Assembly (NCBI GenBank): GCA_019322895.1
Contig: JAHWHZ010000001.1
Coordinates: forward strand, 459,528 to 523,527
Reading direction: 5' to 3'
DNA: 64,000 nt
Source: Candidatus Woesearchaeota archaeon
Lineage (GTDB): Archaea; Nanobdellota; Nanobdellia; Woesearchaeales; ARS49
Of this stretch, positions 29,457-45,095 are shown piece by piece. The notes below the pieces were generated by a model. The model saw only the letters and a list, made by a program, of their open reading frames with translations, was not told the origin of the DNA and made no database searches. Position numbers and translations under genes: made by a program. Each line of letters starts with the position of its first letter. Position 1 is the stretch's first letter.

Positions 29457-29556
29457 GCAATGCTGCCTGGCGAAGTTATCCAAATGACAAGCGGTTTCAG
29501 ATAAATCTGATGTATATGTGATTTAAGCAGCGTAACGTAGCGCAGTATTGCTGCAA
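29457..29556. repeat. intergenic repeat element, copy D (full-length, about 100 nt, terminal inverted repeats)
   Basis: The 5' end is GCAATGCTGCCTGGCGAAGT, the centre is GCGGTTTCAGATAAATCTGA (near-palindrome TCAGAT..ATCTGA) and the 3' end is AGCGCAGTATTGCTGC, the inverse of the 5' end. Homologous to the reverse complement of 52713-52806. Confidence 0.7.
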
Positions 29557-29635
29557 TACAATAAACTTAACTCAACTCTTTACCCAAAAGGTTTATATAT
29601 TAAATACTCGATATTAACGTTAAAAGAGGGTTTAT

Positions 29636-32600
29636 ATGGGAAGCAAACATACATTACTAGTTATTTTAGTGTTAATTCTGTTTTCTAGCACTGTTTATGC
29701 TGTTGATTTTGAGCTTGCATTTGGGTATCCAATGTATAATCTCTCTTATAGCAAACAGTTTTGGGGTGTTGCTGACACAACAGGCCCTTATTTTATCTTG
29801 GAAAATACAGGAATCTGGACTATTCATCCTACTGAAATCGAAGTGGAGGGTTTATTAGAGGTAGACCCGCCTTTTATTGCTGTAGAAGCCAGAGGGCACT
29901 ATACAGACAGATATGCTTGTGAAGGAAACAGGGGCGGCGGAGGATGTAATTCCCATTTGAAAGTTTTATTAGAATATAATCAAAAAGAGGTATGGGACAA
30001 TGTCCGGCGCGCAGACAATCCTCCTAACTGGTATGAAGATCCTATCAATGTTATTTCAGATTATGTAGAATATAAGAGAGTTTCTGGAAGAAAGGAGTGT
30101 ACTAATAGAGATCCTGATGTGAATTGCTGGCCTGACCAGGTAATTCAATTTTATTATGCTCCAATCATTGTAAAGGATTTTAACAATGTATTTGTTGAAG
30201 ATGAGACAAAATCTCTTGGAACTGTTGGAGAGATAATGGGAGAGGATTTTCCAGATGGTGTTAATGCAACTGTTTACACTGGAATTTTTTCAGAGAATAA
30301 ACAGGTTCTTTTCTGGATTGCTGATTATCCTGATTCTTCTGCAGATTATCCTGCGGAGCCTGAAAAAAATACTGCAGACAAGACAGATTATATACTTGCA
30401 TGCGCGGATTTTGACCAAAATAATAAATGCGATCACTTACAGTCTACTGTCCAGACCTGCTGGGATGAAGATGGTGCCTGGTTTGGCAGGAATTATCATG
30501 AAGGCCAGTTATATGGTGGAGGATTTGTGGAAGGATGTTGTGTTGATAATGACCCTCAAAAAATTGCGCGCCTGAATGCAGCAGGAATTGAAGCTTTTCA
30601 CTGCGGATATTATGATCACAGGCTCAAGGCATTGTGCGGTTATGATGAGCAGGGAAATCATCACTGGGCTTCCTTAGAGCAGGCAGGCAGTATTGCAGAT
30701 TTAAGAGGCTGTCCTGGTTTTAATATTGTATCAAATGGAAGAAGATTTTATGGATGTCGCGCCGGAAATTTAGGGTTTGCTACATTTGATACAAATGTTT
30801 CTGTTCAAAGGACATGGTATGACTGGGAAGGCAAGTGGCATGCAAAAGCTGAAAATGAAGACTTGTTTGAAGGCGCATTATATACTAATGCCAATGATTG
30901 GCTTAGAGATTATTTTGATGACAATGGAAAAACTGATTTATGTAGATTAACTGAGAGCATGTGCAATGCGGAGAATGCATATGAAAGCGCGTATAAGTGC
31001 GACTTTACTGATGATCCTAATACCGAAAGATATCAGGTTAATAGTGATGAAGCAACTGTTTATTGGGACTTATCTACAGATGACTGGCCTGATTTGTTTT
31101 GTCCATATAGGATAAGCATATATCCTCTGGAACACCAAACGAAGAGTATCTACAGTGCTTCTGGCACACACACTTATCTTTGTGATTCTACCACTGGAAA
31201 CTTGTTTGAATGTACAGGAGACCTGCCTTCTTTTACAAATCCTTATGAAAATCCTGGTGCAATTGCTGAGACAGGCAGGACAACTGTTGAGCTGGTTGGT
31301 GCAGGCGGCTGTCCTCCAGGAATATTGTCTTACTGGACTTTTGATGATACTGTGCAGGATTCTAAAGGAGATTTCAATGGATTGCTTTCTGGCGCAACTT
31401 ATGCAGAAGGCATTGTTAATAATGCCCTATTGTTTGATGGCAATGACAAGGTGACTGTTTCAGGAAATCTAACAACCCCTGCAAGTAATTTTACGATTGA
31501 GTCATGGATTTATCCTGAGCAGGTTGATGAAGGCACTTATTCAATATTAGAAAAGCCTGGCTCTTACAAGCTTGAGATAGTTGATAGAAGACTTAAGGCA
31601 GGAGTCAATATTGATGGAACCTGGGAAAACTTTGGACATGCATTAGTAAGCAAGAATGACTGGGCTCACATCGCTTTGATTTTTAATGGCAACACTGCGA
31701 GACTTTTCAAGAATGGCGACCCTGTCGGTCATGCTGACAAGACAGGAAGCATAACAAAAACAATCAATCCTTTGGTTATTGGCCAGAATTTCATAGGCAA
31801 GATTGATGAAGTCGCTCTTTATGATGAATCGCTTTCCTATACTCTCTTTAAGGCGCATAAGGATGCTGAAAGAAACTATTGCAATCTTTCCACCGGATTT
31901 ACACAAATAGAATATTGTGCATCAGATGGCTGGTGGACGTATGATTTAGATACAAAAGATGAAAGCTCTTGTGAAAAATCTGGATTCAAGTGGACAGGAC
32001 ATTTGTGCTGCTCAGAAGACAATGATGAAAATGAATTTTACAATGATTGGGATTCTCCTGCACTGCCTTTTGATTATAGCAGGAAATCTGCAAATGTAGA
32101 TTTATTGCCAGATTCAGATAATCCGACATTTATCACATTAAAACCTAGAAAATCAAGAATTACTATTTACGGTCCTGCAAGGTTTGAGATGCGCGTGTAT
32201 TCTTCTGAGAAATTCGGAACAACATATGATAGATGTGAAGAGATTGAAGATAAAACACGCATCATCGAAATAAAATCAGGAGAATCAAGAACATTCAGGG
32301 CAGAACAAGGGCCTGCAGAAGGAGGAGACAATTGCATTTACAGGGAGATAGAGCTTGAGTCAAAGCCATTTGAGGCTCTTGGCGGATGCTGGAACAAGAC
32401 TTTTGTGCCGATTGGGCATTTTGCAGAGCCGCACGTCATTAATTATCACGGCAAGTTTTACAGCTGCGGCATACCTGCATTAGATTTGATTGATACGCGT
32501 AATGGCAGCACGCTTGTTAAGTCTGTCAGTCCTACATGCAGTCACATAATGCTTCATGCAAGAGGGCCGTTACTGCACGCTGTCTGCAATCCTGGAAAGG

Positions 32601-32782
32601 ACTGGCAGTTCACAAACAATTCTGATGCAACAATGCAAAAAAGTGTTGCATGGGATATTGCAGGAACAAATGCAACTGAAATAGGGTGTTGCGGTCCTGA
32701 TGAGTGCTGGAATGGTTTTAATTGCGTTAAAATCGGCAGGTTCCAGGAAATAGATTCAGTCTCATATTTTTGCGGGGAATAA
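29636..32782 (+). CDS. large secreted Cys-rich surface protein with concanavalin-A-like/LamG domain
   Basis: 1048 aa with a signal peptide. The LamG_3-like segment is LSYWTFDDT...NGLLSGATY...LFDG...DWAHIALIFNGNTARLFKNGDPVG...KIDEVALYD. More than 50 Cys. Confidence 0.65.
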   Translation: MGSKHTLLVILVLILFSSTVYAVDFELAFGYPMYNLSYSKQFWGVADTTGPYFILENTGIWTIHPTEIEVEGLLEVDPPFIAVEARGHYTDRYACEGNRGGGGCNSHLKVLLEYNQKEVWDNVRRADNPPNWYEDPINVISDYVEYKRVSGRKECTNRDPDVNCWPDQVIQFYYAPIIVKDFNNVFVEDETKSLGTVGEIMGEDFPDGVNATVYTGIFSENKQVLFWIADYPDSSADYPAEPEKNTADKTDYILACADFDQNNKCDHLQSTVQTCWDEDGAWFGRNYHEGQLYGGGFVEGCCVDNDPQKIARLNAAGIEAFHCGYYDHRLKALCGYDEQGNHHWASLEQAGSIADLRGCPGFNIVSNGRRFYGCRAGNLGFATFDTNVSVQRTWYDWEGKWHAKAENEDLFEGALYTNANDWLRDYFDDNGKTDLCRLTESMCNAENAYESAYKCDFTDDPNTERYQVNSDEATVYWDLSTDDWPDLFCPYRISIYPLEHQTKSIYSASGTHTYLCDSTTGNLFECTGDLPSFTNPYENPGAIAETGRTTVELVGAGGCPPGILSYWTFDDTVQDSKGDFNGLLSGATYAEGIVNNALLFDGNDKVTVSGNLTTPASNFTIESWIYPEQVDEGTYSILEKPGSYKLEIVDRRLKAGVNIDGTWENFGHALVSKNDWAHIALIFNGNTARLFKNGDPVGHADKTGSITKTINPLVIGQNFIGKIDEVALYDESLSYTLFKAHKDAERNYCNLSTGFTQIEYCASDGWWTYDLDTKDESSCEKSGFKWTGHLCCSEDNDENEFYNDWDSPALPFDYSRKSANVDLLPDSDNPTFITLKPRKSRITIYGPARFEMRVYSSEKFGTTYDRCEEIEDKTRIIEIKSGESRTFRAEQGPAEGGDNCIYREIELESKPFEALGGCWNKTFVPIGHFAEPHVINYHGKFYSCGIPALDLIDTRNGSTLVKSVSPTCSHIMLHARGPLLHAVCNPGKDWQFTNNSDATMQKSVAWDIAGTNATEIGCCGPDECWNGFNCVKIGRFQEIDSVSYFCGE

Positions 32783-32797
32783 AAAAGAGGTGATTAG

Positions 32798-33922
32798 TTG
32801 AAAAAACCATTGATTTGGTTATGTATAATCATTTTGCTAGTTTTTGCTGTTTTTGCAGCAGACTGGTATGGGCCTCTTAGCTTAAAGCAAAATTGGGACA
32901 GGACAGAATCTGGCGTGTGTCCGAACATAAAGCAGTGTCTTGTGAGTGCAAGCCCGCAGGCAAAAGCCGAATATAATGACCAGCCAGGAAAATATTTTAC
33001 AGACCCTCCTGGCCCCAAATGCATTGCAGACAAGCAGCATATTCTTGATTATTACTGCGAAGAAGGCAGCTGGACAACAAGAACAAAACTTATTGCCTTG
33101 ACTTTGATGGATTTTGCAAGCACGCAGTCAAACAAGTTTGCCTTGTTCTGCGGAAATTACAAGGACGCTCTTAATCATTACCAGTATCTTGTGGGTTCTA
33201 ACACAGATACAAAATTAGTTGAAGACTTTCTGAAAGATTACAGATGCCCGCAATACAATACAACGACAAAAGAAGCATGCGTGAACAACATCTGTGTCTT
33301 GAAATACCAGGATGGAGTTGCAATAGGCACTAGCTTGAACACAAAAATAAATGATGACGAGCATTCGTTCCTGCTTGCATTGAATCATTCAAGTGATGCC
33401 TGCGACAATATAAATTCAGGCGAAAATTTTCAAAGATGCACAGACTGGAACAAAAGAGGAAGAGCATTTTATAACCCCGGCATAAATTCATTTATTTACT
33501 TGTCTACAGATGATACTCTTCCTTCTGCAAAATATTCTGCAGCATATAATGCATTCATCAAGAATAACCTGGAGTCAATAGAAGATTATGCAGCTAATAT
33601 CCAGGATTCAAATCTTAGTTTTGTCAAGAATACAAGATTATTCAATAATTTTTATTATTCCCAGCAAGGAAGCGGAAAAATAATTTTTGCATTTTTAGAA
33701 GAGGGTCAGGAACTTTTTGATTATGATTATGTCGGTGCAAGATACAAGGGTATTGACTTAGGTAATAATCCTTGCAGTGATGTGTTTGAGCAGTATGATG
33801 CCTGGTCATTTTGCGAAGAGACAAGCGGAGACATAAAGATAATCGCAAAGCAGACCCCTGACAAAAAAAGCCCGCTGGTTGAAGCATGGGCAGATTTGTC
33901 AGGAAAATTAAGGCCAAAATGA
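32798..33922 (+). CDS. secreted Cys-rich protein
   Basis: 374 aa. The TTG start at 32798 is preceded by AGAGGTGA at 5-nt spacing. Signal peptide MKKPLIWLCIIILLVFAVFA. Confidence 0.55.
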   Translation: MKKPLIWLCIIILLVFAVFAADWYGPLSLKQNWDRTESGVCPNIKQCLVSASPQAKAEYNDQPGKYFTDPPGPKCIADKQHILDYYCEEGSWTTRTKLIALTLMDFASTQSNKFALFCGNYKDALNHYQYLVGSNTDTKLVEDFLKDYRCPQYNTTTKEACVNNICVLKYQDGVAIGTSLNTKINDDEHSFLLALNHSSDACDNINSGENFQRCTDWNKRGRAFYNPGINSFIYLSTDDTLPSAKYSAAYNAFIKNNLESIEDYAANIQDSNLSFVKNTRLFNNFYYSQQGSGKIIFAFLEEGQELFDYDYVGARYKGIDLGNNPCSDVFEQYDAWSFCEETSGDIKIIAKQTPDKKSPLVEAWADLSGKLRPK

Positions 33923-35196
33923 GAAACGCACAGATAACATTGTTTTTGATTATTGGAATCGTTATTTTGCTGGGGGCTGGATTGTTGATTTACATGGTAT
34001 CAATAACACCTGAAAAAAAAGGAGAAGAAACAGTGGTTGGGCAGACTTTAAGGCAGCAGGCAGTGCAGCCTGTCAAGGATTACATAACTACTTGTCTTGA
34101 TATTGTTTCTTCAGATGCCCTTGAATTAGTTGGCAAGCAGGGCGGAAGATTGTATCAAGAGCAGGGAAGCATTATTCCTAATCCTTCTGTAGATAAGCTT
34201 GGAATTATTTTCATGGATTATGATGACTCGAAGCTATCGTATTCGATAGTTCCTCCAAAAGGCAATGTTGGCGCCTTGTTTTTTTCTGATGTTCCAGAAT
34301 ATCCTTGGCCCAGCTTCCCATATACAGCCAATGGAAACACCTCAGATCTTGGTTACTTTGGATTATCAAGGCTGCCGGCATTGTACAAGAATTTCAGCAC
34401 AGACTCTATACAACAGCAATTAGAGACATACATCTCAAACAATATCGCAAAATGCACTTTGTGGGATAATAAGTTCCCTGGCTTTAAGATTACAACAGGA
34501 ACACCTATGACAACAATGATTATTGCAGAGAATCTTACACACTTGCGGCAGGAAGAATATATTTCATTTGTGCTTGACTGGCCTGTTACAATAACAGAAG
34601 AAAGCAGTGGTGCCAGGATTACTTTAGATAGGTTCACGGTCAATTATCCTGTCGCATTTGGCAGGATGTATTATACAATCAAGAGCATAGTAGAAGCTGA
34701 AATATCTAACATGAGTTATGAGCCGATTACAACAGATGCTTATTTTATCACAATAAACAATAATGCTTACAACAAGGATGACATAATTGTTTACCAGGAC
34801 AAGAAATACAGTCTCAAGGGGGTTCCTTATGAATTCAGGATTGCAAGAAAGAACCGGGCTCCTGCACTTCATTTGATTGATCAGAAAGAGATAGACAAGT
34901 TTGCATATTGCGTGGATATTGTGAAGTTCTCTTTGCAGGGAAACAAGTTGTATGCAAGTCCTGACCTGGAAGACGGCGATCCTTTTCCATTAAACAGTAC
35001 AGCAATTGATCCAGACAATGATGTGATTTCCTTTAAGCTCAAGCCAACTACGCCAAAAGTGGATTCATATGCAGTTGCTTTGTACAAGGATAATCCTGCA
35101 AAAGGAGGATTGCTTTTCAAGGTCTATGCAGATGACGGCGAGCTTGAAGATTACCAGCAGATAAGGATAATTCCTAAAGGATGTGCAGAAGATTGA
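33919..35196 (+). CDS. membrane-anchored protein with class III (prepilin-like) signal-peptide-type N-terminus
   Basis: The start is set at ATG 33919 (MRNAQITLFLIIGIVILLGAGLL), which overlaps the upstream stop as ATGA. The tracker's start is 33886. Confidence 0.5.
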   Translation: MRNAQITLFLIIGIVILLGAGLLIYMVSITPEKKGEETVVGQTLRQQAVQPVKDYITTCLDIVSSDALELVGKQGGRLYQEQGSIIPNPSVDKLGIIFMDYDDSKLSYSIVPPKGNVGALFFSDVPEYPWPSFPYTANGNTSDLGYFGLSRLPALYKNFSTDSIQQQLETYISNNIAKCTLWDNKFPGFKITTGTPMTTMIIAENLTHLRQEEYISFVLDWPVTITEESSGARITLDRFTVNYPVAFGRMYYTIKSIVEAEISNMSYEPITTDAYFITINNNAYNKDDIIVYQDKKYSLKGVPYEFRIARKNRAPALHLIDQKEIDKFAYCVDIVKFSLQGNKLYASPDLEDGDPFPLNSTAIDPDNDVISFKLKPTTPKVDSYAVALYKDNPAKGGLLFKVYADDGELEDYQQIRIIPKGCAED

Positions 35197-38100: not shown

Positions 38101-39851
38101 AGATGGAAAGTTTCTTCCCTGGATTTGATGTGTATCCCAAGAAATCCCATTCAGTTGCAGTCAATGTTTCTGAAGTCAAGGGCTACACATATTATGTTGC
38201 CTGCAAAGACAAGGCAGAACTATTGTCATCATCAAAGCCGATCACATTCACTATTGACTTGACAGCCTTGTTTGCAATAAAGAGCACTACAGAGCCTTAT
38301 TCCAGCACAGAATTGTTTGACCTGCGTATTGAAAGCAATAAAAGGTCATTCTGCTTTTTTGGAGAAAATAAGAACAGCATCTCAAACTGCTTTGGGGCAT
38401 GTGAATTCACTAATGGCCATGCCCAGCCAATCACAAAGCCTGCTGGAACTTACACGTTCTTTGTTAAGTGCAATACCGGCTCTGGAGGGGAATCGAGCAA
38501 TGTGCTTAATATCACTGTGACAGTTGATACCAGCCCTCCTGTTATGGAGTATGTTGATGACAGCTCTACACTGCCTGGGGAGCCAGACATATCATGGTAT
38601 CCTGACAGGCTAAAGGTCAAGTTCAAGGGCAAGGATCCTGAGACAAAAGTCATAAAATATTATTATCTTTTAGAGACTGCATTTGCAAGAGAGCTTGTTG
38701 TGAACTGGACTCCAAGTCTTGAGCTAAATGGAACTTCTATCTTTGTAAAAGCAAACTTGTCTGACGGCCAGAGATATGTTTTTAGGGTAAGGCCTGTGAA
38801 TCTTGTCGGCCTGGTTGGAAATTTCAGTTCAAGTGACGGAGTGACAGTTGATTTGTCAAAAATGCCTCCTGTCTGTGCTAATGGAGAAAAAGATGCAAAT
38901 GAAACTGATATTGACTGCGGAGGCATGTGCGCAGGCTGTGCAGTAGGTAAAAATTGCCTGAAGAATAATGACTGTGAATCAGTGTATTGTGCAGAGAATG
39001 TTTGTGCAGAGCCTTCTTGTACAGATGGCGTAAGAAATGGCCAGGAGACTGATGTTGACTGCGGCGGTCCTGAGTGTCCGAAATGCATGCTTAACAAGAC
39101 ATGTGCAGAAAATACTGATTGTGATTCTGGCAGCTGCTTGTTTGGAAAATGTGCTGTTGATACCTGCAAAAATGGTGTTCTTGACAACACAGAGTCTGAT
39201 ATTGATTGCGGAGGTGCATGCCCATCAAGGTGCGGCAGTGGAATGAACTGCAACCTGCCAGGTGATTGCGCAGAAGAACTTGCCTGCATTGACAATACTT
39301 GTAGTGTTCCTCTTGACTTAGATGAAGATGGTGTTCCTGATTATCTTGATATCTGCCCTAATACTCTTCCAGGTGTTCCTGTTGATGCACAAGGATGCGA
39401 GATTGTTGAAGAGATTCCTGCTGCAGAAAAGCCTTCCTTCTTGTGGACTCTCATAAAGTTCTTGCTGATACTTGCAGTGCTTGGAGGCCTTGGATTTGGA
39501 GGATATTATGCTTACAAGAAAGGATATTTAGATAAAGTGATTGCAAAGTTCAAGAAAGCCCCTCCTGCTGCGCCTGAAATAAAGCCTGCTGCTGTAAAAG
39601 CAAGGCCAAAGCCTAAGCCAGTAGGGCCTACACCTGAAGAAAGGATTGCTGCCTTGCGAAAGTTTGCAAAAAAGAAGGAGCGGCCTGCAATAACAGAAGA
39701 GTTTGTTCCATTAGAGAAATTAAAAACTAAAAAAAGGCCTAAAACAAAGGCTTTTGAGAAGCTAAAGAAGCTTAAATCAAAGAAAAAAGCTTCTAAGAAA
39801 AAATCTAAAGAAGAGGCCATAGCAAAGCTGAGGAAGATAAGGAAAAAATGA
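35181..39851 (+). CDS. giant (1556 aa) type-I-membrane surface protein: Sec signal, Cys-rich modules, Ig-like regions, three or four novel 6-Cys tandem repeats, TSP-type-3-like Ca-binding motif, C-terminal TM and Lys-rich cytoplasmic tail
   Basis: Signal ...AAAVFAQQ. Repeats of the form CxxGxxNxxETD(I/V)DCGGxCxxC...C...DC.S..C....C at about 38866-39310. DLDEDGVPDYLDICPNT matches DxDxDGxxDxxDxCP. TM segment FLWTLIKFLLILAVLGGLGFGGYY. Tail KKAPPAAPEIKP...KKLKSKKKASKKKSKEE. Confidence 0.7.
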   Translation: MCRRLNKKILLISIMMILTALAAAVFAQQFGCCCDPIVRTGSIMNQSACVSPFVFVPIPAFGFTGCPALCNATNITAPPTVPPSCTAPGYKPPVSNLFVLPVKGEKAVQIDFNLPCPVNHVKIYRCQGSGCTNFTLLTTLGSSNSYKDESADLLWDEDYNYKIIANYKVSGDSTPATAEVNIGDLECWYQTTNDLFCIAPYYYDQFKSYLKKYGYKIASADDFKADFDSERDSVFNDFYRKSWRCNDMNQLSKPSPQVSCTEDEICISDGSTAKCVESVSCDLGGDFGLQSDVDDCEGEYGEIKYCFLDKSTTVVNKCYPCNPQMTCYDYHSEDACLRDNCGAGQCAWTDVFPDLGIGVCYDARFDACSLCQARPSSSASNKEGFNEVFDACTEEKARALSTDEIPCFFNKNTQEGQSCDYVDCTAYTQTQCSSPAGGIQLNSDNSIKVGSNDACQINVCQYSVETGCVKNANGASGVGWSDCLDAEDPELCEKDYFPPETIAVLTGEAPGKHDYIDLIINDMTSRTGKTKEMQGEPGYKTYLCIVSANNSCNIASAFPITTTKSRLIINDLNLQDGQDVVGKFSEGNNKVKFYSVDPNKNLEVIKEVIVFACDKCSGPKAINITVTGANEVNGKFYTRVLQPSIKITFDEPAELIASSLDKAGVLQSLASSPTSGLNYQYTFMPNNQLSEGVYRFSVNAKDDNGVSMDNPVVFDLYIDTTPPTVVITPEDGVEFETKDVAVALNFSEPVFFNKTTLDEVVFINEFAKESFPIYLSRELSSENSKYFSGIVTNLKAGLKIVNVDVTDYAGNVLRTKSYFSVFAGPPKIRMVHPSWGISSVFSFNVTVESSTKAKCKYIYDVPAPPPATQFDSLSDFDSSDGIYHVINQVTIPYGDTSTHSLHVYCKAGEFNISRQSFNLFIDSIAPKIVSAYANPDPIVEPVETGAEIYSTRLQVQTDEEGFCKYSADKQDFKEMESFFPGFDVYPKKSHSVAVNVSEVKGYTYYVACKDKAELLSSSKPITFTIDLTALFAIKSTTEPYSSTELFDLRIESNKRSFCFFGENKNSISNCFGACEFTNGHAQPITKPAGTYTFFVKCNTGSGGESSNVLNITVTVDTSPPVMEYVDDSSTLPGEPDISWYPDRLKVKFKGKDPETKVIKYYYLLETAFARELVVNWTPSLELNGTSIFVKANLSDGQRYVFRVRPVNLVGLVGNFSSSDGVTVDLSKMPPVCANGEKDANETDIDCGGMCAGCAVGKNCLKNNDCESVYCAENVCAEPSCTDGVRNGQETDVDCGGPECPKCMLNKTCAENTDCDSGSCLFGKCAVDTCKNGVLDNTESDIDCGGACPSRCGSGMNCNLPGDCAEELACIDNTCSVPLDLDEDGVPDYLDICPNTLPGVPVDAQGCEIVEEIPAAEKPSFLWTLIKFLLILAVLGGLGFGGYYAYKKGYLDKVIAKFKKAPPAAPEIKPAAVKARPKPKPVGPTPEERIAALRKFAKKKERPAITEEFVPLEKLKTKKRPKTKAFEKLKKLKSKKKASKKKSKEEAIAKLRKIRKK
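38866..39310 (+). repeat. tandem array of about 45-aa six-cysteine modules inside the giant surface protein
   Basis: PPVCANGEKDANETDIDCGGMCAGCAVGKNCLKNNDCESVYCAENVC / PSCTDGVRNGQETDVDCGGPECPKCMLNKTCAENTDCDSGSCLFGKC / DTCKNGVLDNTESDIDCGGACPSRCGSGMNCNLPGDCAEELACIDNTC. Confidence 0.6.
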
Positions 39852-40321
39852 AAAAAGCGCAGATGATAGGCCAGATATTTATTTTTGTAGTTGCTGCAAT
39901 AATTTTTATCCTTATCCTTATGTATGGGTATAAGGCAATCTCTAATTTTTTGCAGCGTTCTGAGCAGGTTGCATTGATTGATTTCAAGTCTGATTTAGAA
40001 TCTTCTGTAGAGGTCATCAAGAGGGATTATGGCAGTGTGAGAAAGCTTGAATTAAAGCTGCCAAAAAGATATACAGAGCTCTGCATAATTGATATAAACA
40101 ATTGCGAGCCGCTAAAGAAACAGAGGCCTTTGATGTATTCGACGTGTATTGCAGGCAGTGAGAATGTCATACTTGTTCCTAAGCAGGAAACTCCTATCTT
40201 TCTTCCAGACATAACTGTTTTAGGCGGCTACACTTGTGTTGATGTTGCCCACGGCAATGTTGTACTGGGCCTTAAGGGTCTTGGCAAGTCAACACAGATT
40301 TCAGGGTGGCCTGTTCCATAA
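39848..40321 (+). CDS. pilin-like protein with archaeal class III signal peptide
   Basis: MKKAQMIGQIFIFVVAAIIFILILM... The ATG overlaps the upstream stop (ATGA). Confidence 0.55.
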   Translation: MKKAQMIGQIFIFVVAAIIFILILMYGYKAISNFLQRSEQVALIDFKSDLESSVEVIKRDYGSVRKLELKLPKRYTELCIIDINNCEPLKKQRPLMYSTCIAGSENVILVPKQETPIFLPDITVLGGYTCVDVAHGNVVLGLKGLGKSTQISGWPVP

Positions 40322-41358
40322 TGAAAAAACGCGGTTTTGAGATGCAGTTTCACTGGATTTTTATTCTGATAGCTGGCGCTGTAATCCTTGCTTTCTTTTT
40401 TTCTGTAGTTGCCAAGCAAAAATCGCTTTCTGAGCAAAAGCTTTCCATAACCCTCTCAGAGAATATTGAAGCGGTTTTTTCTGGCGCAATTGAAAGCAAG
40501 GGAACTGCCCAGTTGCTTGCAATGCCTAAAGGGGGACTGTCTTTTTCCTGCTCAGAGGCTTGTGACTGTAATTTTTGGATTGATGACAAGGCAACTTCTT
40601 TCAGCGATAAGATCCTGTTTGCTCCCTCCTTGATTGAAGGCCAGGATGCTGTGGCCTGGTCAAATGAATGGAAGATGCCTTTTAGGATAACTAATTTCCT
40701 GTACATCACAAATCCTAATATCAAGTATTATCTTGTTTATGAGGCTGGCAAGAATGACCGCTTGTTTGATAGGATAAATAAGTCATTTCCACCTGGATTG
40801 AATGTGGCTGTTTTGAGAGACCCGAATGAAGTAGAGGATGTTCCTTATGAAGGTTATCCGGAGACTAAGTTTATATTTTTAGATGTGGTCAATCCTGAGA
40901 TTAACCTGATGGGCATGGACAGTGATTTCAAGAGAGAAGAGGTTTCTGCAATAAATATCCAGCCAAATGCAAATTCAATCACTTTTTACGAGAAAACGCC
41001 TAAAGAGATTGAATTTACATCCAAATCATCTCCTTTTGCAGGCGAGCCGTGGATATTTGCCGCAATATTCGCTGCAGATAAGCAGATGTATGATTGTGGC
41101 TTGCGGGCAGCTTTCCTTAAGCTGAGTCATGTTGCGCAGGTAATTTATGGCAGGGCAAAGATGATACAGGCCAACATAACCCAAATAAAACCTGAATGCA
41201 CATATTTGCTTGACAGTTTTGACGTGCTTATTGAAAGCTCAAAAAGTTTTGTAAATCAATTGGATTTTTCAAGTATTTCAGGCATAGCCCAGGCTGCTGA
41301 TGATATTGAGAGAGAAAACAAGAACATAATATTGTTATCCTGCCCAGAGATTTATTAA
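40321..41358 (+). CDS. pilin-like protein (class III signal peptide, 345 aa)
   Basis: MKKRG|FEMQFHWIFILIAGAVILAFFF. The start is set at ATG 40321, overlapping the upstream TAA by 1 nt. Confidence 0.55.
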   Translation: MKKRGFEMQFHWIFILIAGAVILAFFFSVVAKQKSLSEQKLSITLSENIEAVFSGAIESKGTAQLLAMPKGGLSFSCSEACDCNFWIDDKATSFSDKILFAPSLIEGQDAVAWSNEWKMPFRITNFLYITNPNIKYYLVYEAGKNDRLFDRINKSFPPGLNVAVLRDPNEVEDVPYEGYPETKFIFLDVVNPEINLMGMDSDFKREEVSAINIQPNANSITFYEKTPKEIEFTSKSSPFAGEPWIFAAIFAADKQMYDCGLRAAFLKLSHVAQVIYGRAKMIQANITQIKPECTYLLDSFDVLIESSKSFVNQLDFSSISGIAQAADDIERENKNIILLSCPEIY

Positions 41359-41359
41359 A

Positions 41360-41851
41360 ATGAGGCGAGCACAGATAAAGATGTTTGAAACAATGGCTGT
41401 GTTAGTGATATTCTTCTTTTTATTGGTCGGCGGTGCTGCTTTTTATTTTCAGATACAGAAAAGCAGCATAAAAAGAGATTTGGAGAGGCAGGAGCAGCTG
41501 CGTGCGTTTCAGGTTGTGCAGAAAGCGTTGTTTTTGCCAGAGCTTGACTGTTCTTTTGTGAGCATACAGAAAGATAATTGCTTTGATAAATTAAAAGTGA
41601 TTAATCTCCAAGAGCTTTTGAAGCAGGAAAAGTTTATGATTGATTATTTTAATGTGTTTGGTTTTTCCGAGATAAAGATAATGCAGCTTTATCCTGTTAA
41701 TGATACCTTTTCATATACTCTTTACCAGAACATTCCTGAAAAATATAAGTCCGTGATAAGCACGCAAAGCCCGATACTGCTGTTTGATGCAGTGCAGAAC
41801 AGGTATAATTTTGGTGTTGTTGAGGTTGATGTTTATGCAGAAGAGCAATAA
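41360..41851 (+). CDS. pilin-like protein (class III signal peptide)
   Basis: MRRAQIKMFETMAVLVIFFFLLVGG. Confidence 0.5.
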   Translation: MRRAQIKMFETMAVLVIFFFLLVGGAAFYFQIQKSSIKRDLERQEQLRAFQVVQKALFLPELDCSFVSIQKDNCFDKLKVINLQELLKQEKFMIDYFNVFGFSEIKIMQLYPVNDTFSYTLYQNIPEKYKSVISTQSPILLFDAVQNRYNFGVVEVDVYAEEQ

Positions 41852-42320
41852 GTCCCAGATGGAGATAATGGGTCTGGTAATTATAGTGATACTTGTTGCT
41901 ATTGGAATGCTTTTTGCAGTGCAGTTTTTGCTGAAAAAGCCTGCTGGAAGAGAGACTGCAGCTGTAAAGGAAAGCACGATTGCGGCAAATTTCCTTAACG
42001 CGATGCTTTCCACCACAACTGACTGCTATAACAGGAACATTCGCGAATTATTGCAGGACTGTGCTCTTACTGGCGGCACCACAAGATGCCCTGGCCAGAG
42101 AAACTCTTGTGATTATGCTGCAGACCAGATAAGAATAATGCTTGACAAGACATTGAGCACCTGGAACAAGGATTATTATTTCAGCATAAAAGGCGCTCCT
42201 GGTGTTGAGGCAATCTCTTTTGGCAATTCCTGCCCTGAATGTGAGAGAGAGGCAAAGATACATCCTGTTCCTGTCCGGCCTGGCTTTGAGATACAGCTTA
42301 CGCTTGAGATTTATAGTTAA
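41835..42320 (+). CDS. pilin-like protein (class III signal peptide), Cys-containing
   Basis: The start is set at ATG 41835 (MQKSNKSQMEIMGLVIIVILVAIGMLF). Four Cys in the globular part. Confidence 0.5.
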   Translation: MQKSNKSQMEIMGLVIIVILVAIGMLFAVQFLLKKPAGRETAAVKESTIAANFLNAMLSTTTDCYNRNIRELLQDCALTGGTTRCPGQRNSCDYAADQIRIMLDKTLSTWNKDYYFSIKGAPGVEAISFGNSCPECEREAKIHPVPVRPGFEIQLTLEIYS

Positions 42321-42350
42321 TCTTTATATATCGCTTTTTCTTTATATCTA

Positions 42351-44207
42351 ATGATGGGGGACAGCAGGATTAAAAGAGCATATAATTGGCTAGTGAAAAA
42401 GCCTTTGCGCACAGCAGGCATTGCAGGACTTATTGCATTGCCTTACAGTTTGTACAATGTTTTGAACTGGAAGATTTCTTTTATTGATTCAGAGGCGTCT
42501 GAGCTTTTTCAGGATCTTTTTGCAATAACCACTCCTGTATGGACAGCAGCCAGCACAGGCTTTTTTGCAGAATTGCTCAATACTTTTACTTATGAAGATA
42601 AATATCATCCAAGAACAAGATTAAGTGATTTCAAGAAGAGAAGGAAAATAAAAAAAGAACTTGCAAAAACTGATTTTGAGTCATTAATTGACAAGGAGTT
42701 TAAGTTGTTGAAGGCAGATAATGTCTTGAAGACGCTTTATGATGAAGGAATTAAAAGGCCAGGTATCACAGGAACTCCTGAAGGCACAGACAAGCTTGCT
42801 GAGCTGGCTGAAAAAGAAAAAAATCCAGCAATGCATTTTGATGCTGCATTTAATTATTTTGACCAGGATAAACATGATGAAGCTTTTATCCAGATGAGCA
42901 AGTTTCTTCAGCTTAATAAGGATATTTCTTTGCTTCATAAGCTTGATTTGACAATAAAAGACTTTTGCAACAGAACAGAAACTTTCTTGAATACCAGGAA
43001 TTCATTTCCCTTGTTTTATGCAGCCTTGATAGAGATATTGAAAAGAAATTATGACAGCGCCCTTTATTATTCTTCTTTTGCAAGAAAAACAGCTGAAGAA
43101 TTTGACAGTCCGATCAAGAAAGAAATATTTTGCCTTGACTCATTGATTCATCATGCACTGAATGCAAAGAATTCAAGCGAAATCTGGGCCAATTTTGTGA
43201 TAGAGACAAGAAAACAGCAGGCTCTTGAAAGGATTGCTGAAACAAAGAATCTTGTGAGGCAGGTGAAAGACAGCAGGTTCTTGTCAAAGACAATTGTGTT
43301 AAAAGACAAGCATGATAGAAAAGATCTTGAGGCAGAGGCAGAGATGACAAATTACATTAAAGGCATTCTTCCTACTAGAGATGAGCTCAAGAAGATAATC
43401 GGCGATGATATTGGAATAACATTTGATACTCCAGAGATGTTTTATCTTTCAGAAAAACCTGTCAATAATATGTATCCATTGGTCATGCGCCATGCTCCTG
43501 GAGAGACCTTGCTTGAGCAGTTTAAGAAAGAAAAATATTCTATGTTTCCTTTTATTGCTGTATGCCTGGCAAAGATTCATGCAGATGTCCCTGCTGAAAA
43601 AGTCAGGAAAAAGCAGCTTGAGATTATTCCTAAGTTAATGCGCAAGCTGACAGATCCTGATCTAAAGCTCTCAAAGGACCTGACTGAAAGAGTCCTTCGC
43701 AATTACAAGCCTGTGTTGAATCTTTTTAAGGACGCAACGTATGTCTATAATAAGGATGCGCATCCAGAAAACTGGCTGATACATGACAAGACAGTTATTG
43801 TTCTTGACTGCGAGAATAATTTCTTGGTCCCGCAGCAGTTTGACTTGGTTAATTTGCTTGAGTATTCAGATTACCTTACTGATATGCAGAAAGATTATGC
43901 AATAAAGCTGTATATTGATGCATATGAGGAATTCACAAATACCTTGATTGACAGGGAAAAGTTCAAGCTTACGTATTTAAATTCAGTGATTCAAAGAGCC
44001 ATCTCCTTGTGTACTGCCTGGTCTTCTGAATACAGGAAGTCAATGCATGCTGAAAGGCCTAAAGTAATTGCAAATGCCATTCACGCGATAGACAGGATGC
44101 AGAAAGAGCATAAAACATATTATTACAGGCATAAATTTAATTATTTGAATTTGCAGAGAGCTTTAGAAGAAATAAAGGAATTAGTCAGTGTTCAAGGCAA
44201 TCATTGA
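42351..44207 (+). CDS. hypothetical 618-aa protein; C-terminal region with protein-kinase-like (APH/ChoK-type) signature
   Basis: NKDAHPENWLIHDKTVIVLDCENNFLVPQQFDLVNLL resembles the HxDxxxxN ... DxE ... DL motifs of aminoglycoside/choline kinase-like folds. There is one N-terminal hydrophobic segment. Call is tentative. Confidence 0.3.
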   Translation: MMGDSRIKRAYNWLVKKPLRTAGIAGLIALPYSLYNVLNWKISFIDSEASELFQDLFAITTPVWTAASTGFFAELLNTFTYEDKYHPRTRLSDFKKRRKIKKELAKTDFESLIDKEFKLLKADNVLKTLYDEGIKRPGITGTPEGTDKLAELAEKEKNPAMHFDAAFNYFDQDKHDEAFIQMSKFLQLNKDISLLHKLDLTIKDFCNRTETFLNTRNSFPLFYAALIEILKRNYDSALYYSSFARKTAEEFDSPIKKEIFCLDSLIHHALNAKNSSEIWANFVIETRKQQALERIAETKNLVRQVKDSRFLSKTIVLKDKHDRKDLEAEAEMTNYIKGILPTRDELKKIIGDDIGITFDTPEMFYLSEKPVNNMYPLVMRHAPGETLLEQFKKEKYSMFPFIAVCLAKIHADVPAEKVRKKQLEIIPKLMRKLTDPDLKLSKDLTERVLRNYKPVLNLFKDATYVYNKDAHPENWLIHDKTVIVLDCENNFLVPQQFDLVNLLEYSDYLTDMQKDYAIKLYIDAYEEFTNTLIDREKFKLTYLNSVIQRAISLCTAWSSEYRKSMHAERPKVIANAIHAIDRMQKEHKTYYYRHKFNYLNLQRALEEIKELVSVQGNH

Positions 44208-45095
44208 TGCAGAGAAATCAACTATTTTCAGGACAGCGTTATTTAAGTAGTTAAGCATTCCTGCTTCTGCTCCTTTTTTTATGCTCACTGCCTTGTGCCC
44301 TTTTTCAAGCAGTTCTTTTTTCTTTTCATTCAGTTTATTTAACTGCTTTAAGTCAAATGAATAAAATAATTCGTAATATCTTCTCAGCAGGTCATTTGTT
44401 TCCTTGAATAAAGAAATGCTTTCTTTTGAAAGTTTTGCATTGCTTTCTGAGAGCAGTTTGCAGATATACTTGTAATCATCGCATACTTTTTCAAGGTTCC
44501 ATGCGATTACATAATAAAAGCAGGTTTTTGCATAATCAAGATGCCCTTTCTTGTTGAGTGTTCTTTGGCAGAAATTTGTTAATTGATTGTTTGTTTTTTC
44601 AAGTGCAAGAAGCTCTTTCAATTGCTTTTGCTGTCCCTGCTTGATGTATTCTATTGCACTGTCGCCCATTGATATTGTCACAAGCCACGCTCTTCTCAGG
44701 ATGTTGTCAAACTCCTGCTCTCTTTCCTGTGATATTGCTCGTAATACGCATCTTTTATTGCTTTGGTGCACAATTGCAAATCCAACAAAGAGGTCTTTCA
44801 CAAGCTCTTGTATGACTGCTGTCTTTTTCGGGTTTTCATAGAATAATTCTATCTCATCATAGCCTTTCTTGTGCAGGCTTGATAACAGCCATCTAAGGGT
44901 TCTTTCGTCTGTCTTTGTTATGTTGATGCTTGTCTTTTTTGTGTCTATTTCTTTTTTTGTTGAGAATATGATGTTTGTTGCCCTGTCTTTTACTTCCAGT
45001 TCATCTCCTTTTTTGATGCCGTACTTTTTTACCCACTTGCTTGGCAAACTCACCACAAAGGTTCTTCCTGCAAGCTGTATCACTTTTCTCTTCAT
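44181..45095 (-). CDS. transcription regulator: AbrB/SpoVT swapped-hairpin N-domain fused to PhoU-like domain
   Basis: MKRKVIQLAGRTFVVSLPSKWVKKYGIKKGDELEV (AbrB/MazE-type) plus a helical PhoU-like repeat region. Confidence 0.6.
   Translation of the reverse strand: MKRKVIQLAGRTFVVSLPSKWVKKYGIKKGDELEVKDRATNIIFSTKKEIDTKKTSINITKTDERTLRWLLSSLHKKGYDEIELFYENPKKTAVIQELVKDLFVGFAIVHQSNKRCVLRAISQEREQEFDNILRRAWLVTISMGDSAIEYIKQGQQKQLKELLALEKTNNQLTNFCQRTLNKKGHLDYAKTCFYYVIAWNLEKVCDDYKYICKLLSESNAKLSKESISLFKETNDLLRRYYELFYSFDLKQLNKLNEKKKELLEKGHKAVSIKKGAEAGMLNYLNNAVLKIVDFSASMIALNTD

What the first reader, a model, noticed from the sequence alone, without database searches (positions are those of the whole stretch)
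29636..44207. Co-directional 11-gene surface module joining giant Cys-rich secreted proteins to pilin-like genes
From 29636 to 44207 all genes lie on the plus strand with gaps of 30 nt or less, or with overlaps. They are a 1048-aa LamG protein, a 374-aa Cys-rich protein, a 425-aa protein with a pilin-like N-terminus, a 1556-aa giant, four pilin-like proteins and a 618-aa kinase-like protein. The giant's stop overlaps the first pilin-like start (ATGA), which argues for co-transcription of adhesin-like and pilin-like components. The only minus-strand neighbour upstream is a Cys-rich membrane-anchored protein (28800-29390), transcribed divergently from a shared spacer that also contains a repeat-element copy.
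Basis: partly seen in the sequence, partly recalled or inferred. Interest (0 to 1): 0.7.

Follow-up and report, generated by a model that had tools for sequence, protein, structure and literature searches.

The report
Conserved Woesearchaeal pilin and adhesin operon
This is the first half of a ~26-kb gene block, conserved across Woesearchaeota (tiny, probably host-dependent archaea), that links giant adhesin-like surface proteins to a fixed set of pilin-like proteins found in no curated family; it is the best candidate for their cell-attachment apparatus, but the general kind of system (type IV pilus genes plus adhesins) is already known.

Summary
They lie at 29636-44207, with junctions from -17 to +30 nt. 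The D/E ATGA overlap is real.

The window comes from a Candidatus Woesearchaeota MAG (KY346_02990 and neighbours). Order D-E-F-G-H recurs across the 82 fetched loci, down to about 27% identity. F-G-H are adjacent in 68/68 loci that have room. D is adjacent to E in 42/43.

C, E, F, G and H each carry a conserved K-[GA]-Q class-III (prepilin-like) N-terminus followed by a hydrophobic helix. None matches a Pfam, NCBIfam or PDB pilin. A and B have Sec-type signal peptides. D adds Ig/fn3/TSP3 domains, a C-terminal membrane anchor and a basic tail.

Two corrections:
- The kinase-like gene has its own TATA box, varies in position and strand, and belongs to a regulator insertion (kinase, AbrB, Lrp/AsnC) absent from distant relatives.
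- The module does not end at 44207. It continues to about 56.2 kb with three small pilins and about nine more class-III proteins.

No assembly ATPase or platform gene lies nearby.

Best reading: A-H is one operon for minor-pilin-like subunits and adhesins of a type IV filament assembled in trans. This is a new variant of a known kind.

The parts
29583..29600 (+). BRE/TATA-like promoter element (TTTATATA at 29592-29599), 44 nt before the A start
   Evidence: TTTATATA occurs 14 times in the window against 3.0 expected, almost all intergenic. The 18-mer is 17/18 identical to 45694-45711, upstream of the first small pilin. TATA-like motifs precede A in 5/15 related loci against a 1.2% background.
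29636..32782 (+). A: 1048-aa protein with a Sec-type signal peptide, Cys-rich (36 Cys), with a LamG/ConA-like domain (residues 601-734)
   Evidence: Pfam PF13385, E=3e-19. Weak PDB hit to an S-layer-domain LamG protein, 4qvs, E=0.0026. Sec-type signal peptide and no C-terminal TM. Fastest-evolving member of the operon, 32% identity where F is 43%.
32798..33922 (+). B: 374-aa Cys-rich protein with a Sec-type signal peptide (13 Cys); TTG start with a GAGGTGA ribosome-binding site
   Evidence: No Pfam or NCBIfam family. Present in most related loci but missing in some, e.g. L002/L029, L033, L039.
33919..35196 (+). C: 425-aa class-III-signal (prepilin-like) protein with a large globular domain of unknown fold
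   Evidence: Family N-terminal consensus is MKKAQITLFIIIG plus a hydrophobic helix. ATGA overlap with B. No Pfam or PDB relatives even with a 26-sequence profile. Single copy in the window.
35181..39851 (+). D: 1556-aa giant type-I membrane protein. Order of parts: signal peptide, invariant GCCCDP, Cys-rich N-terminal region, Ig/fn3-like array, three Cys-rich repeats, TSP3-like Ca-binding repeat, TM (1418-1436), ~120-aa Lys-rich cytoplasmic tail
   Evidence: Big_13, Big_3_3 and Y_Y_Y hits. TSP3_bac in 13/21 and Big_13 in 8/21 orthologues. 77 Cys, about 70 invariant. C-terminal TM plus a 110-340-aa tail of 22-37% K/R in nearly all orthologues. No PDB sequence relative.
39848..40321 (+). E: 157-aa class-III-signal pilin-like protein, translationally coupled to D (ATGA)
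   Evidence: Consensus KKAQIIGQVFIFILA. D/E gap has a median of -4 nt in 62 loci, and D is adjacent to E in 42/43. No Pfam, NCBIfam or PDB relatives.
40321..41358 (+). F: 345-aa class-III-signal protein (KY346_02990) with a 53-residue N-terminal helix and a globular head not matched in the PDB
41360..41851 (+). G: 163-aa class-III-signal pilin-like protein
   Evidence: Consensus KKAQIKMFETIAVL with invariant Q5 and E10. Adjacent to F in 68/68 loci. No PDB relatives.
41835..42320 (+). H: 161-aa class-III-signal pilin-like protein (KY346_03000); helix 8-33, a linker, then an alpha/beta head
42323..42330 (+). TATA-like box in the 30-nt H/K spacer, followed by a T5 run (probable end of the A-H unit) and separated from the K start (probable leaderless start)
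   Evidence: TATA-like motif before K in 4/28 related loci against a 1.2% background.
42351..44207 (+). K: 618-aa APH-fold kinase-like protein; a neighbour and candidate regulator, not a core member
   Evidence: APH E=8.4e-5 in the window copy; 11/25 orthologues match, best 2.5e-10. NKDAHPENW and the downstream Asp are conserved. Position and strand vary, and it is replaced by a Hanks-type Pkinase on the minus strand in L002. Lowest conservation in the block, 26%.
44181..45095 (-). AbrB/SpoVT-domain regulator (304 aa), convergent with K
   Evidence: PF04014, E=3e-7. Found in 34 related loci and always minus-strand, except in L037, where the whole downstream block is inverted. Absent where H abuts the pilins.
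45228..45692 (+). Lrp/AsnC-type regulator (154 aa)
   Evidence: PF01037/PF13412. Found in 34 related loci.
45755..46081 (+). Small pilin (108 aa), major-pilin candidate, with its own TATA box
   Evidence: MRKA|QGLPITTIIIAALALVVLVVL. TATA at 45703. The 'pil' HMM family has 178 hits in 58 loci. TATA-like motif found before 23/76 and 44/86 'pil' genes in relatives.
46551..46895 (+). Small pilin paralogue (114 aa) with a Cys-rich C-terminus and its own TATA box (46523)
47057..51700 (+). N (322 aa) and O (about 1174 aa from the start at 48176): two further class-III-signal proteins
   Evidence: N occurs in 51 loci and O in 15. No Pfam hits.
52382..56168 (+). Third small pilin (109 aa; TATA at 52352) plus five more class-III-like proteins: 173 aa, 367 aa (Amidase_3 fold), 160 aa, 132 aa and 277 aa
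   Evidence: The 173-aa protein at 52859 was judged class-III-like by eye only and is not returned by the scan. Orthologous families were found downstream in related loci. The profile of the 367-aa family hits LytH/AmiC-type amidases at E=1.3e-11.
28800..29390 (-). Divergent 196-aa membrane-anchored Cys-rich protein; not a conserved member
   Evidence: A homologue was found in only 1 of 82 loci, L019.
29447..29559 (+). Copy of a ~95-nt hairpin-forming intergenic repeat, in the shared spacer
   Evidence: Five copies in the window. The closing stem has 3 compensatory pairs. MFE -35.3 kcal/mol, z=-3.0. No Rfam family.

Best explanation
Genes A-H (29636-42320) form one operon. It is the 5' half of a structural-gene supercluster, about 29.6-56.2 kb, for a type IV filament (pilus-like) surface apparatus of Woesearchaeota.

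Five products (C, E, F, G, H) are made with class-III (prepilin-type) signal peptides. Inferred steps:
- a prepilin peptidase cleaves them after the K-[G/A] motif;
- their hydrophobic N-terminal helices are then taken up by a secretion ATPase/platform pair encoded elsewhere in the genome.

These five are single-copy, low-expression, mutually unrelated subunits in a fixed order. I infer that they act like minor pilins: a priming or tip/base complex that carries special head domains. The filament shaft would come from the small, multi-copy, separately promoted pilins downstream (45755, 46551, 52382).

The co-transcribed Sec-exported Cys-rich proteins would supply the binding function. These are A (LamG lectin-like), B, and the giant D (membrane-anchored, Ig/fn3/TSP3). 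D is translationally coupled to E, which suggests a D-E partnership in the membrane.

The APH-fold kinase K, the AbrB-type protein and the Lrp/AsnC protein are a lineage-specific regulatory insertion between the two halves. They are not part of the operon.

Shown: gene structure, conservation of order and spacing, N-terminal motifs, domain content, promoter-motif distribution.
Inferred: peptidase cleavage, filament assembly, minor-pilin role, adhesion, regulation.
For: Gene structure and origin:
- Layout and overlaps.
- Woesearchaeal origin.

Conservation:
- The order A-B-C-D-E-F-G-H recurs across the 82 fetched loci, down to about 27% F identity. 123 species genomes carry an F relative.
- F-G-H are adjacent in 68/68 loci. 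E is adjacent to F in 43/58. D is adjacent to E in 42/43. Median gaps are -4, -4, +1 and -8 nt.
- E, G and H are the most conserved members; A, B and K are the least.

Pilin-like character:
- N-termini are conserved as K-K-[A/G]-Q followed by a hydrophobic helix in C, E, F, G, H, the small pilins, N and O.
- Of 15 such N-termini in the window, 14 lie between 33.9 and 56.2 kb.
- The families resemble each other only in the first 25-80 residues, which is the type IV pilin hallmark.
- The F model has a 53-residue N-terminal helix at pLDDT 92.8.

Transcription units:
- TATA-like motifs occur before A, K and the small pilins, and never before C or E-H, in the window and across relatives.

Adhesin-like content:
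- LamG in A.
- Ig/fn3/TSP3 domains plus a conserved TM and basic tail in D.

Larger block:
- In distant loci H abuts the small pilins directly, so the two halves are one block.

Literature:
- Archaeal TFF loci commonly combine several pilins with large adhesin-like proteins, and system 1 (Epd-type) occurs in DPANN (bioRxiv 10.64898/2026.04.22.720090).
- Pilin loci in archaea can be separate from the ATPase/TadC loci (PMC4858521).
Against: - No secretion ATPase, platform protein or prepilin peptidase is in the 64-kb window. None appears among the families conserved within +/-10 kb in related loci.
- No Pfam or NCBIfam pilin or archaellin model matches any member, even at E<=10 and E<=1.
- Profiles of C, E, F and G find no pilin in PDB sequences.
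- The F head has no PDB fold match.
- H has a short helix, a linker and a PAS/Cache-like head rather than a canonical pilin alpha-beta roll.
- D is anchored by its own C-terminal TM helix, so it cannot simply ride on a pilus tip.
- There are no transcript, proteome or imaging data.
Confidence: 0.6

Rival explanations
1. Bindosome-like or pseudopilus display platform. The class-III proteins do not build an extended pilus. They form a short, membrane-proximal pseudopilus or raft, like the Sulfolobus bindosome or a type II secretion pseudopilus. This structure holds large functional heads at the cell surface next to the anchored giant D. The heads would be C, F, N, O and the amidase-fold protein.
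For: - An unusually high share of the class-III proteins are large (C 425, F 345, N 322, O about 1174, 367 and 277 aa), not small shaft pilins.
- One carries an enzyme fold, Amidase_3.
- H has a sensor-like PAS/Cache head on a flexible linker.
- D stays membrane-anchored.
- Class-III substrate-binding proteins assembled by a TFF machinery are known in Sulfolobales and beyond.
Against: - Three small (108-114 aa), separately promoted, multi-copy pilin genes are a conserved part of the block. These are typical shaft subunits.
- No ABC-transporter or substrate-binding domains were found in the block.
Confidence: 0.2
2. Cell-envelope module. D is the main envelope (S-layer-like) glycoprotein of Woesearchaeota. 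A-C and E-H are envelope assembly or anchoring factors that are merely N-terminally membrane-anchored. They are not filament subunits.
For: - D is large and rich in Ig-like domains. It has 18 N-glycosylation sequons, a C-terminal TM anchor, strong conservation, and presence in most loci (69 of 82).
- The TFF preprint notes that adhesin-like proteins in TFF loci resemble archaeal S-layer proteins.
- The LamG region of A has its only PDB sequence hit in an 'S-layer domain' protein.
Against: - D sits fourth in an operon, with an overlapping start and no promoter motif of its own (2/50 in relatives). That is unlike a very highly expressed S-layer gene.
- It has about 77 cysteines. That S-layer proteins are usually Cys-poor is from general knowledge, not tested here.
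- A subclade keeps F-G-H and the pilins at this locus without D and E.
- The conserved K-[GA]-Q motif in eight families is hard to explain for plain signal anchors.
Confidence: 0.12
3. No functional unit. These are unrelated surface-protein genes that sit together only because Woesearchaeal genomes are collinear around the RNase P p30 and Lrp/AsnC genes.
For: Flanking housekeeping or regulatory genes are also shared by a number of relatives: p30 upstream, AbrB and AsnC downstream.
Against: - The flanks change while D-E-F-G-H stays. Ribosomal-protein or other housekeeping genes lie upstream in L045, L049, L050, L057 and L061, and the regulators are absent in L044-L082.
- Start-stop overlaps are conserved.
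- The shared N-terminal motif marks eight different families as substrates of one pathway.
Confidence: 0.03

Closest known systems
Epd pilus locus of Methanococcus maripaludis / archaeal TFF 'system 1' (bioRxiv 10.64898/2026.04.22.720090; PMC3875500)
   Same: - A multi-gene, co-transcribed cluster with several different pilin-like proteins carrying K-G/A-Q-type class-III signals.
- Adhesin-like accessory proteins in the cluster.
- Small shaft pilins encoded separately.
- System 1 is reported in DPANN.
   Different: - The Epd cluster contains its ATPase, two platform genes and a dedicated peptidase. None is present here within 64 kb.
- No sequence relationship to Epd proteins could be tested.
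- No curated pilin model matches.
- Much larger adhesin-like proteins (1048 and 1556 aa) and about 15 class-III proteins.
Bacterial T4aP minor-pilin operon fimU-pilVWXY1E and the type II secretion GspH-I-J-K pseudopilin set
   Same: - Four distinct, single-copy pilin-like genes in fixed order, one of them much larger than the others (F, 345 aa).
- Co-transcribed with a >1000-aa non-pilin adhesin-like protein.
- The major pilin is expressed from its own promoter.
   Different: - D is anchored by a C-terminal TM helix and has no PilY1-type domain detected.
- The organism is an archaeon with a single membrane.
Modular pilins of Streptococcus sanguinis (PilB vWA module; PilC lectin module; PMC8179133, PMC9934059)
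   Same: - A pilin N-terminus grafted onto large functional heads (C, F, N, O, the amidase-fold protein).
- A ConA/LamG-type lectin module belongs to the system.
   Different: - Here the LamG module is on a separate Sec-exported protein (A), not fused to a pilin.
- The head folds are unrelated or unknown.
Sulfolobus bindosome (class-III-signal sugar-binding proteins assembled by BasEF with BasABC)
   Same: Many large globular proteins with class-III signals that are presumably held at the surface by a TFF-type assembly.
   Different: No substrate-binding-protein or ABC-transporter domains. Adhesin-type domains are present instead. No assembly genes lie in cis.

Membership tests
Type IV pilin-like (class-III signal peptide) proteins of archaea | Short basic N-terminal region ending in G/A at -1 (often Q at +1), followed directly by a ~20-residue hydrophobic helix | tested here: met
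   Family consensus N-termini for C, E, F, G, H, the small pilins, N and O. Window scan finds 15 such proteins, 14 of them in the block. F is an exception in having F-E rather than Q after the G.
Type IV pilin-like (class-III signal peptide) proteins of archaea | Match to a curated pilin or archaellin N-terminal model (Pfam or NCBIfam) | tested here: not met
   No pilin, archaellin or class-III model matched at E<=10 (Pfam) or E<=1 (NCBIfam). The only hint is TIGR02523 PilV for H, E=0.0088, 16.5 bits against a cutoff of 52.2.
Type IV pilin-like (class-III signal peptide) proteins of archaea | Long N-terminal alpha-helix projecting from a globular head in the structure | tested here: inconclusive
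   [not shown]
Type IV pilin-like (class-III signal peptide) proteins of archaea | Cleavage by a prepilin peptidase (PibD/FlaK/EppA) encoded in the same genome | not testable with these tools
   Only 64 kb of the 705-kb contig is available, and no peptidase is in the window.
Complete type IV filament (TFF) locus | Secretion ATPase and polytopic platform protein encoded with the pilins | tested here: not met
   No T2SSE- or T2SSF-type Pfam hit among the large window ORFs scanned. The families conserved within +/-10 kb of F in 82 loci are further class-III-like proteins or housekeeping genes. Separate pilin loci are known in archaea.
Bacterial minor-pilin/PilY1 or GspHIJK tip complex | Homology or fold similarity to FimU/PilV/W/X or GspH/I/J/K | tested here: not met
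   [not shown]
Bacterial minor-pilin/PilY1 or GspHIJK tip complex | Several distinct low-copy pilin genes in fixed order, co-transcribed with a large non-pilin adhesin and separate from the major pilin | tested here: met
LamG / concanavalin-A-like lectin superfamily (protein A) | Significant match to PF13385 above the curated cutoff | tested here: met
   70.1 bits against a cutoff of 27.6, E=3e-19, residues 601-734. Also present in the L001 orthologue.
APH / eukaryotic-like kinase fold (protein K) | Match to PF01636 and conservation of the catalytic HxDxxxxN-type loop and the metal-binding Asp | tested here: inconclusive
   The window copy scores 22.9 bits, just under the 23.2 cutoff. Eleven of 25 orthologues match, best E 2.5e-10. 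N-K-D-A-H-P-E-N-W is the consensus, and D469, D486 and D498 are >=90% conserved. No PDB sequence hit. The substrate is unknown.
Archaeal S-layer glycoprotein (protein D) | Most abundant envelope protein, forming a 2-D lattice | not testable with these tools
   Only indirect features are available: Ig-like array, sequons, C-terminal TM. Its position in the middle of an operon argues against it.
Amidase_3 N-acetylmuramoyl-L-alanine amidases (53377-54480, downstream half) | Catalytic-domain homology plus the Zn ligands (His, Glu, His) and catalytic Glu | tested here: inconclusive
   Fold homology is met: family profile against LytH 7tj4_B at E=1.3e-11 over the whole domain. Catalytic residues are kept in several orthologues. 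In the window copy they read L175, E202, R258 and V337, so 3 of 4 are lost.

The most novel reading that the evidence does not exclude
The invariant D-E-F-G-H core, with C and the downstream class-III proteins, is a DPANN-specific host-contact machine. It would be an archaeal, independently evolved counterpart of the bacterial minor-pilin/PilY1 tip complex. Four subunits with head folds not matched to any solved pilin (F unmatched in the PDB, H with a PAS/Cache-like head) would prime a pilus. They would couple it to a membrane-anchored giant whose conserved basic cytoplasmic tail signals inward. The filament would also carry enzymatic heads, such as pilin-fused peptidoglycan-amidase-fold proteins, to breach or remodel a bacterial host's wall.
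Probability: 0.25. Interest if true: 0.85.

Novelty: new variant of a known kind. Interest (0 to 1): 0.6.

Why it matters
Woesearchaeota are among the most widespread DPANN archaea. They are uncultured, and how they attach to or exploit partner cells is unknown.

This block is present in at least 123 species-level genomes. It is built almost entirely from families with no Pfam or NCBIfam model. The H family alone has more than 2,000 50%-identity clusters in public data. It therefore gives a concrete, conserved set of about 20 candidate genes for the Woesearchaeal surface and attachment apparatus.

It also provides clear handles for experiments:
- predicted cleavage sites;
- one operon start;
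- separately promoted shaft pilins;
- a regulator trio;
- a pilin-fused amidase-fold protein that hints at bacterial partners.

In addition, it would extend the principle of 'minor pilins plus a big adhesin in one operon' from bacteria to archaea, using unrelated proteins.

Tried and rejected
- Exact look-up of the giant D in the contig index found nothing on record.
- The AlphaFold-database fold library was unavailable, so fold comparison was limited to the PDB.
- My iterated A and B HMMs became mixed through fused A-B ORFs in some loci. A/B calls in the synteny table therefore mean 'A and/or B-like'.
- hhalign found no shared domain among A, B, C and D beyond the signal peptides, so the idea of one common Cys-rich module was dropped.
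- PDB sequence searches were empty: K and D as single sequences, and C, E, F and G as profiles.
- Rfam found no family in the window, and nothing significant in the spacer.
- The repeat element was not found in 82 related loci by pattern search.
- A long direct-repeat search did not pick up the spacer element. It was found only by short-word BLAST.
- A mobile-element or horizontally acquired island was considered and rejected. GC is flat at 0.37-0.42 across the region, and the block sits at the same chromosomal position in distant relatives.
- The built-in promoter/terminator scan was not used, because it models bacterial sigma-70 promoters and intrinsic terminators. An archaeal TATA-motif analysis was done instead.

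Full report
**1. What is in the sequence**

The window is archaeal. It encodes eRF1, RNase P p30, TrmB, archaeal PheRS, RFC, RadA and a tRNA-splicing endonuclease. It comes from a Candidatus Woesearchaeota MAG. The 345-aa protein is MBW2973333.1 (KY346_02990), on a 705-kb contig.

Between 29636 and 44207 all large ORFs are on the + strand. I name them as follows.

| Name | Coordinates | Size |
|---|---|---|
| A | 29636-32782 | 1048 aa |
| B | 32798-33922 | 374 aa |
| C | 33919-35196 | 425 aa |
| D | 35181-39851 | 1556 aa |
| E | 39848-40321 | 157 aa |
| F | 40321-41358 | 345 aa |
| G | 41360-41851 | 163 aa |
| H | 41835-42320 | 161 aa |
| K | 42351-44207 | 618 aa |

That makes nine genes, not the eleven in the finding's title. 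The junctions are +15, -4, -16, -4, -1, +1, -17 and +30 nt, and the D/E ATGA overlap is real. GC content is flat across the region.

**2. The proteins**

- **A** has a Sec-type signal peptide, 36 Cys and a LamG/ConA-like domain (PF13385, E=3e-19).
- **B** has a Sec-type signal peptide, is Cys-rich, and belongs to no known family.
- **D** has a signal peptide and an invariant G-C-C-C-D-P at the mature N-terminus. About 70 of its cysteines are invariant. It has Ig-like/fn3 domains (Big_13, Big_3_3), three Cys-rich repeats and TSP3-type Ca-binding repeats (13 of 21 orthologues). It ends in a C-terminal TM helix followed by a Lys/Arg-rich tail. That anchor-plus-tail layout is kept in nearly all orthologues.
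- **C, E, F, G and H** each start with a short basic stretch, then G/A(/S), usually Q, then a hydrophobic helix. These N-termini are the best-conserved part of each family: C is KKAQITLF, E is KKAQIIGQVF, F is KKG-FE-QFNWIFILIAGA, G is KKAQIKMFET, and H is KKGQMEIMGL. Profile-profile comparison shows the families resemble each other only over the first 25-80 residues. That is the hallmark of type IV pilin-like proteins.
- **K** has an APH-type kinase fold. The window copy falls just below the Pfam cutoff, 11 of 25 orthologues match, and the D-A-H-P-E-N loop and downstream Asp are conserved.

None of C, E, F, G or H matches any Pfam or NCBIfam model, even at permissive thresholds. Profiles of C, E, F and G find nothing in PDB sequences.

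**3. Predicted structures**

These are pilin-like by their N-termini, not by membership of any known pilin family.

**4.

The F family has 153 relatives in the protein database. All are hypothetical, and every one that carries an organism name is Woesearchaeota. A scan of one genome per species found relatives in 123 genomes, and 80 loci were fetched. Several record titles read 'Methanosarcinales' or 'Binatia'. These are evidently mislabelled MAG contigs, because their gene content is Woesearchaeal.

Local iterative HMM searches with the window proteins gave these counts out of 82 loci: D in 69, E in 67, F in 82, G in 79 and H in 76. Most misses are at contig ends.

- F-G-H are adjacent in 68 of 68 loci with room.
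- E is adjacent to F in 43 of 58.
- D is adjacent to E in 42 of 43.
- Median gaps are D/E -4, E/F -4, F/G +1 and G/H -8 nt.

A/B and C precede D in most loci that reach far enough.

The flanks change while the core stays. A subclade begins the block at F, with ribosomal or other housekeeping genes upstream. Elsewhere p30 lies upstream. General genome collinearity therefore does not explain the conservation.

E, G and H are the most conserved members (45-53% identity where F is 43%). D is about equal to F. A, B and K are the least conserved.

The H-family profile finds 2265 50%-identity cluster representatives at E<=1e-3 in 1.84 billion proteins, nearly all 150-190 aa. This is a very large family with no annotation.

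**5. Two corrections to the finding**

*(a) K is not part of the co-transcribed core.* A TTTATATA box lies in the 30-nt H/K spacer, 28 nt before the K start, and a T5 run follows it. K is poorly conserved. It lies before or after the AbrB gene, or on the other strand, in relatives. In L002 a Hanks-type kinase on the minus strand takes its place. It is missing from the more distant loci.

*(b) The module does not end at 44207.* Downstream of the AbrB-type (minus strand) and Lrp/AsnC regulators, the window continues with:
- three small pilins (45755, 46551, 52382), each with its own TATA box;
- N (322 aa) and O (about 1174 aa);
- five more class-III-like proteins, up to 56168.

Of 15 class-III-like N-termini in the window, 14 lie between 33.9 and 56.2 kb. 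In distant relatives H is followed directly by 'pilin, pilin, N...' with no K, AbrB or AsnC. The two halves are therefore one conserved block, and the three regulators are an insertion in one subclade.

**6. Transcription units (inferred from motifs only)**

TTTATATA occurs 14 times in the window against 3.0 expected, and almost always in intergenic DNA. There is one 44 nt before A, one before K, and one before each small pilin. There is none inside 29636-42320. The 18-mer around the A box is 17/18 identical to the one before the first small pilin.

Across the related loci, a TATA-like motif lies 12-75 nt upstream of the start at these rates (background 1.2%):

| Gene | Loci with motif |
|---|---|
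| A | 5/15 |
| K | 4/28 |
| small pilins | 23/76 and 44/86 |
| B | 1/22 |
| D | 2/50 |
| C | 0/41 |
| E | 0/63 |
| F | 0/80 |
| G | 0/77 |
| H | 0/75 |

Together with the conserved overlaps, this supports three inferences: A-H is one operon, K has its own promoter, and the small pilins are independently (probably highly) expressed.

**7. What is missing**

No secretion ATPase, platform protein or prepilin peptidase is present in the window. None appears among the families conserved within +/-10 kb of F in related loci.

Separate pilin loci served by ATPase/TadC pairs elsewhere are known in archaea (PMC4858521). Woesearchaeota are reported to express archaellin-type genes (PMC11606122). Assembly in trans is therefore plausible, but it is untested here.

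**8. Interpretation**

The best-supported reading is that A-H encodes the low-copy, specialised subunits and the adhesins of a type IV filament, and that the shaft pilins are the small downstream genes.

- C and E-H behave like minor pilins. They are single-copy, fixed in order, mutually unrelated beyond the N-terminus, and more conserved than the adhesins.
- The conserved translational coupling of D and E, and their joint absence in the subclade that starts at F, suggest that they work as a pair.
- A (a lectin-like LamG protein) and B evolve fastest, as expected for proteins that contact a partner.

The organisation parallels two known systems: the bacterial fimU-pilVWXY1E operon, and the M. 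maripaludis Epd locus with archaeal TFF system 1, which is reported in DPANN. There is no detectable homology to either, and the assembly genes are not in cis.

The rivals are:
- a bindosome-like, membrane-proximal display assembly (many of the class-III proteins are large, and one has an enzyme fold);
- an envelope module with D as an S-layer-like protein (argued against by its mid-operon position and the 77 cysteines);
- mere collinearity (argued against by the changing flanks and conserved overlaps).

**9. Novelty**

I found no paper in the searchable library that describes this block, or pilins in Woesearchaeota. The kind of system, type IV filament genes with adhesins, is well known. This is a new variant built from unannotated families, with an unusual separation from its machinery and an unusually large number of class-III proteins.

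**10. Limits**

- Everything about cleavage, assembly, adhesion and regulation is inference.
- Only two structures could be modelled.
- The AlphaFold-database fold library was unavailable.
- No multimer prediction, transcript data or whole-genome view of the source contig was possible.

Noticed in passing
window 53377-54480 (+); orthologues e.g. L016:19069-20124, L021:16054-17067, L028:18643-19614: A class-III-signal (pilin-like) protein carries an Amidase_3 (N-acetylmuramoyl-L-alanine amidase) fold. The family profile hits LytH 7tj4_B at E=1.3e-11. Several orthologues keep the His/Glu/His Zn ligands and the catalytic Glu. The window copy has lost 3 of the 4 (L175, R258, V337). A peptidoglycan-amidase fold on a pilin stem in an archaeon hints at bacterial partners.
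   Followed up: partly
window 4350-4462 (-), 23008-23120 (+), 29447-29559 (+), 46228-46340 (+), 52705-52817 (-): A ~95-nt intergenic repeat occurs in both orientations. Its core is AATGCTGCCTKGCGAAGT ... GATAAATCT ... GCGCAGTATTG. The 18-mer gives 6 hits against 0.24 expected. The closing stem has 3 compensatory pairs among the 5 copies. MFE is -35.3 kcal/mol (z=-3.0). There is no Rfam family, only a sub-threshold C/D-box hit at E=0.8. It was not found in 82 related loci. It could be a small RNA or a MITE-like element.
   Followed up: partly
window 10142-16725 (-): A second co-directional cluster of six genes with no Pfam hits lies on the minus strand. It holds a 388-aa protein with a class-III-like N-terminus (MKKRA|DGAPVG...), a 502-aa polytopic membrane protein, three paralogous proteins of 306-326 aa with lipobox-like signal peptides, and a 310-aa protein.
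   Followed up: no
window 35262-35279 (D residues 28-33) and orthologues: The mature N-terminus of the giant D carries an invariant G-C-C-C-(D-P) motif just after the predicted signal-peptide cleavage site (VFA|QQFGCCCDP). Three consecutive invariant cysteines at a mature N-terminus are unusual. They could mark a metal site, a lipid attachment or an intermolecular disulfide hub.
   Followed up: no
L048, L054, L055, L058, L062, L070, L071, L074, L081, L082 (upstream of E/F): In a distant subclade the giant D is represented by two adjacent genes: a ~1600-2150-aa protein without a C-terminal anchor, and a ~1000-1430-aa protein with the TM and basic tail. This indicates gene fission or fusion in the history of D.
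   Followed up: no
L002/L029 11971-13935 (-), L026 12030-13970 (-): Where the APH-fold K is absent, a Hanks-type Ser/Thr protein kinase (PF00069) of about 655 aa sits at the same place on the opposite strand. The association of 'a kinase next to the pilin block' therefore looks conserved even though the kinase family is not.
   Followed up: partly
window 48176-51700 (+): O is a ~1174-aa protein with a class-III-like N-terminus. It also has a Lys/Glu-rich low-complexity stretch (the KKKKEAEEKKAAEEKKKAEEKK region at about 48480-48557) and a second hydrophobic segment. It has no Pfam hit and is poorly conserved (23-25% identity).
   Followed up: no
record titles of L003, L007, L010, L012, L030 and others: Many public MAG contigs that carry this Woesearchaeal block are titled 'uncultured Methanosarcinales archaeon', and one 'Candidatus Binatia bacterium'. 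These are probably taxonomic mislabels or mis-binned contigs in the source assemblies.
   Followed up: no
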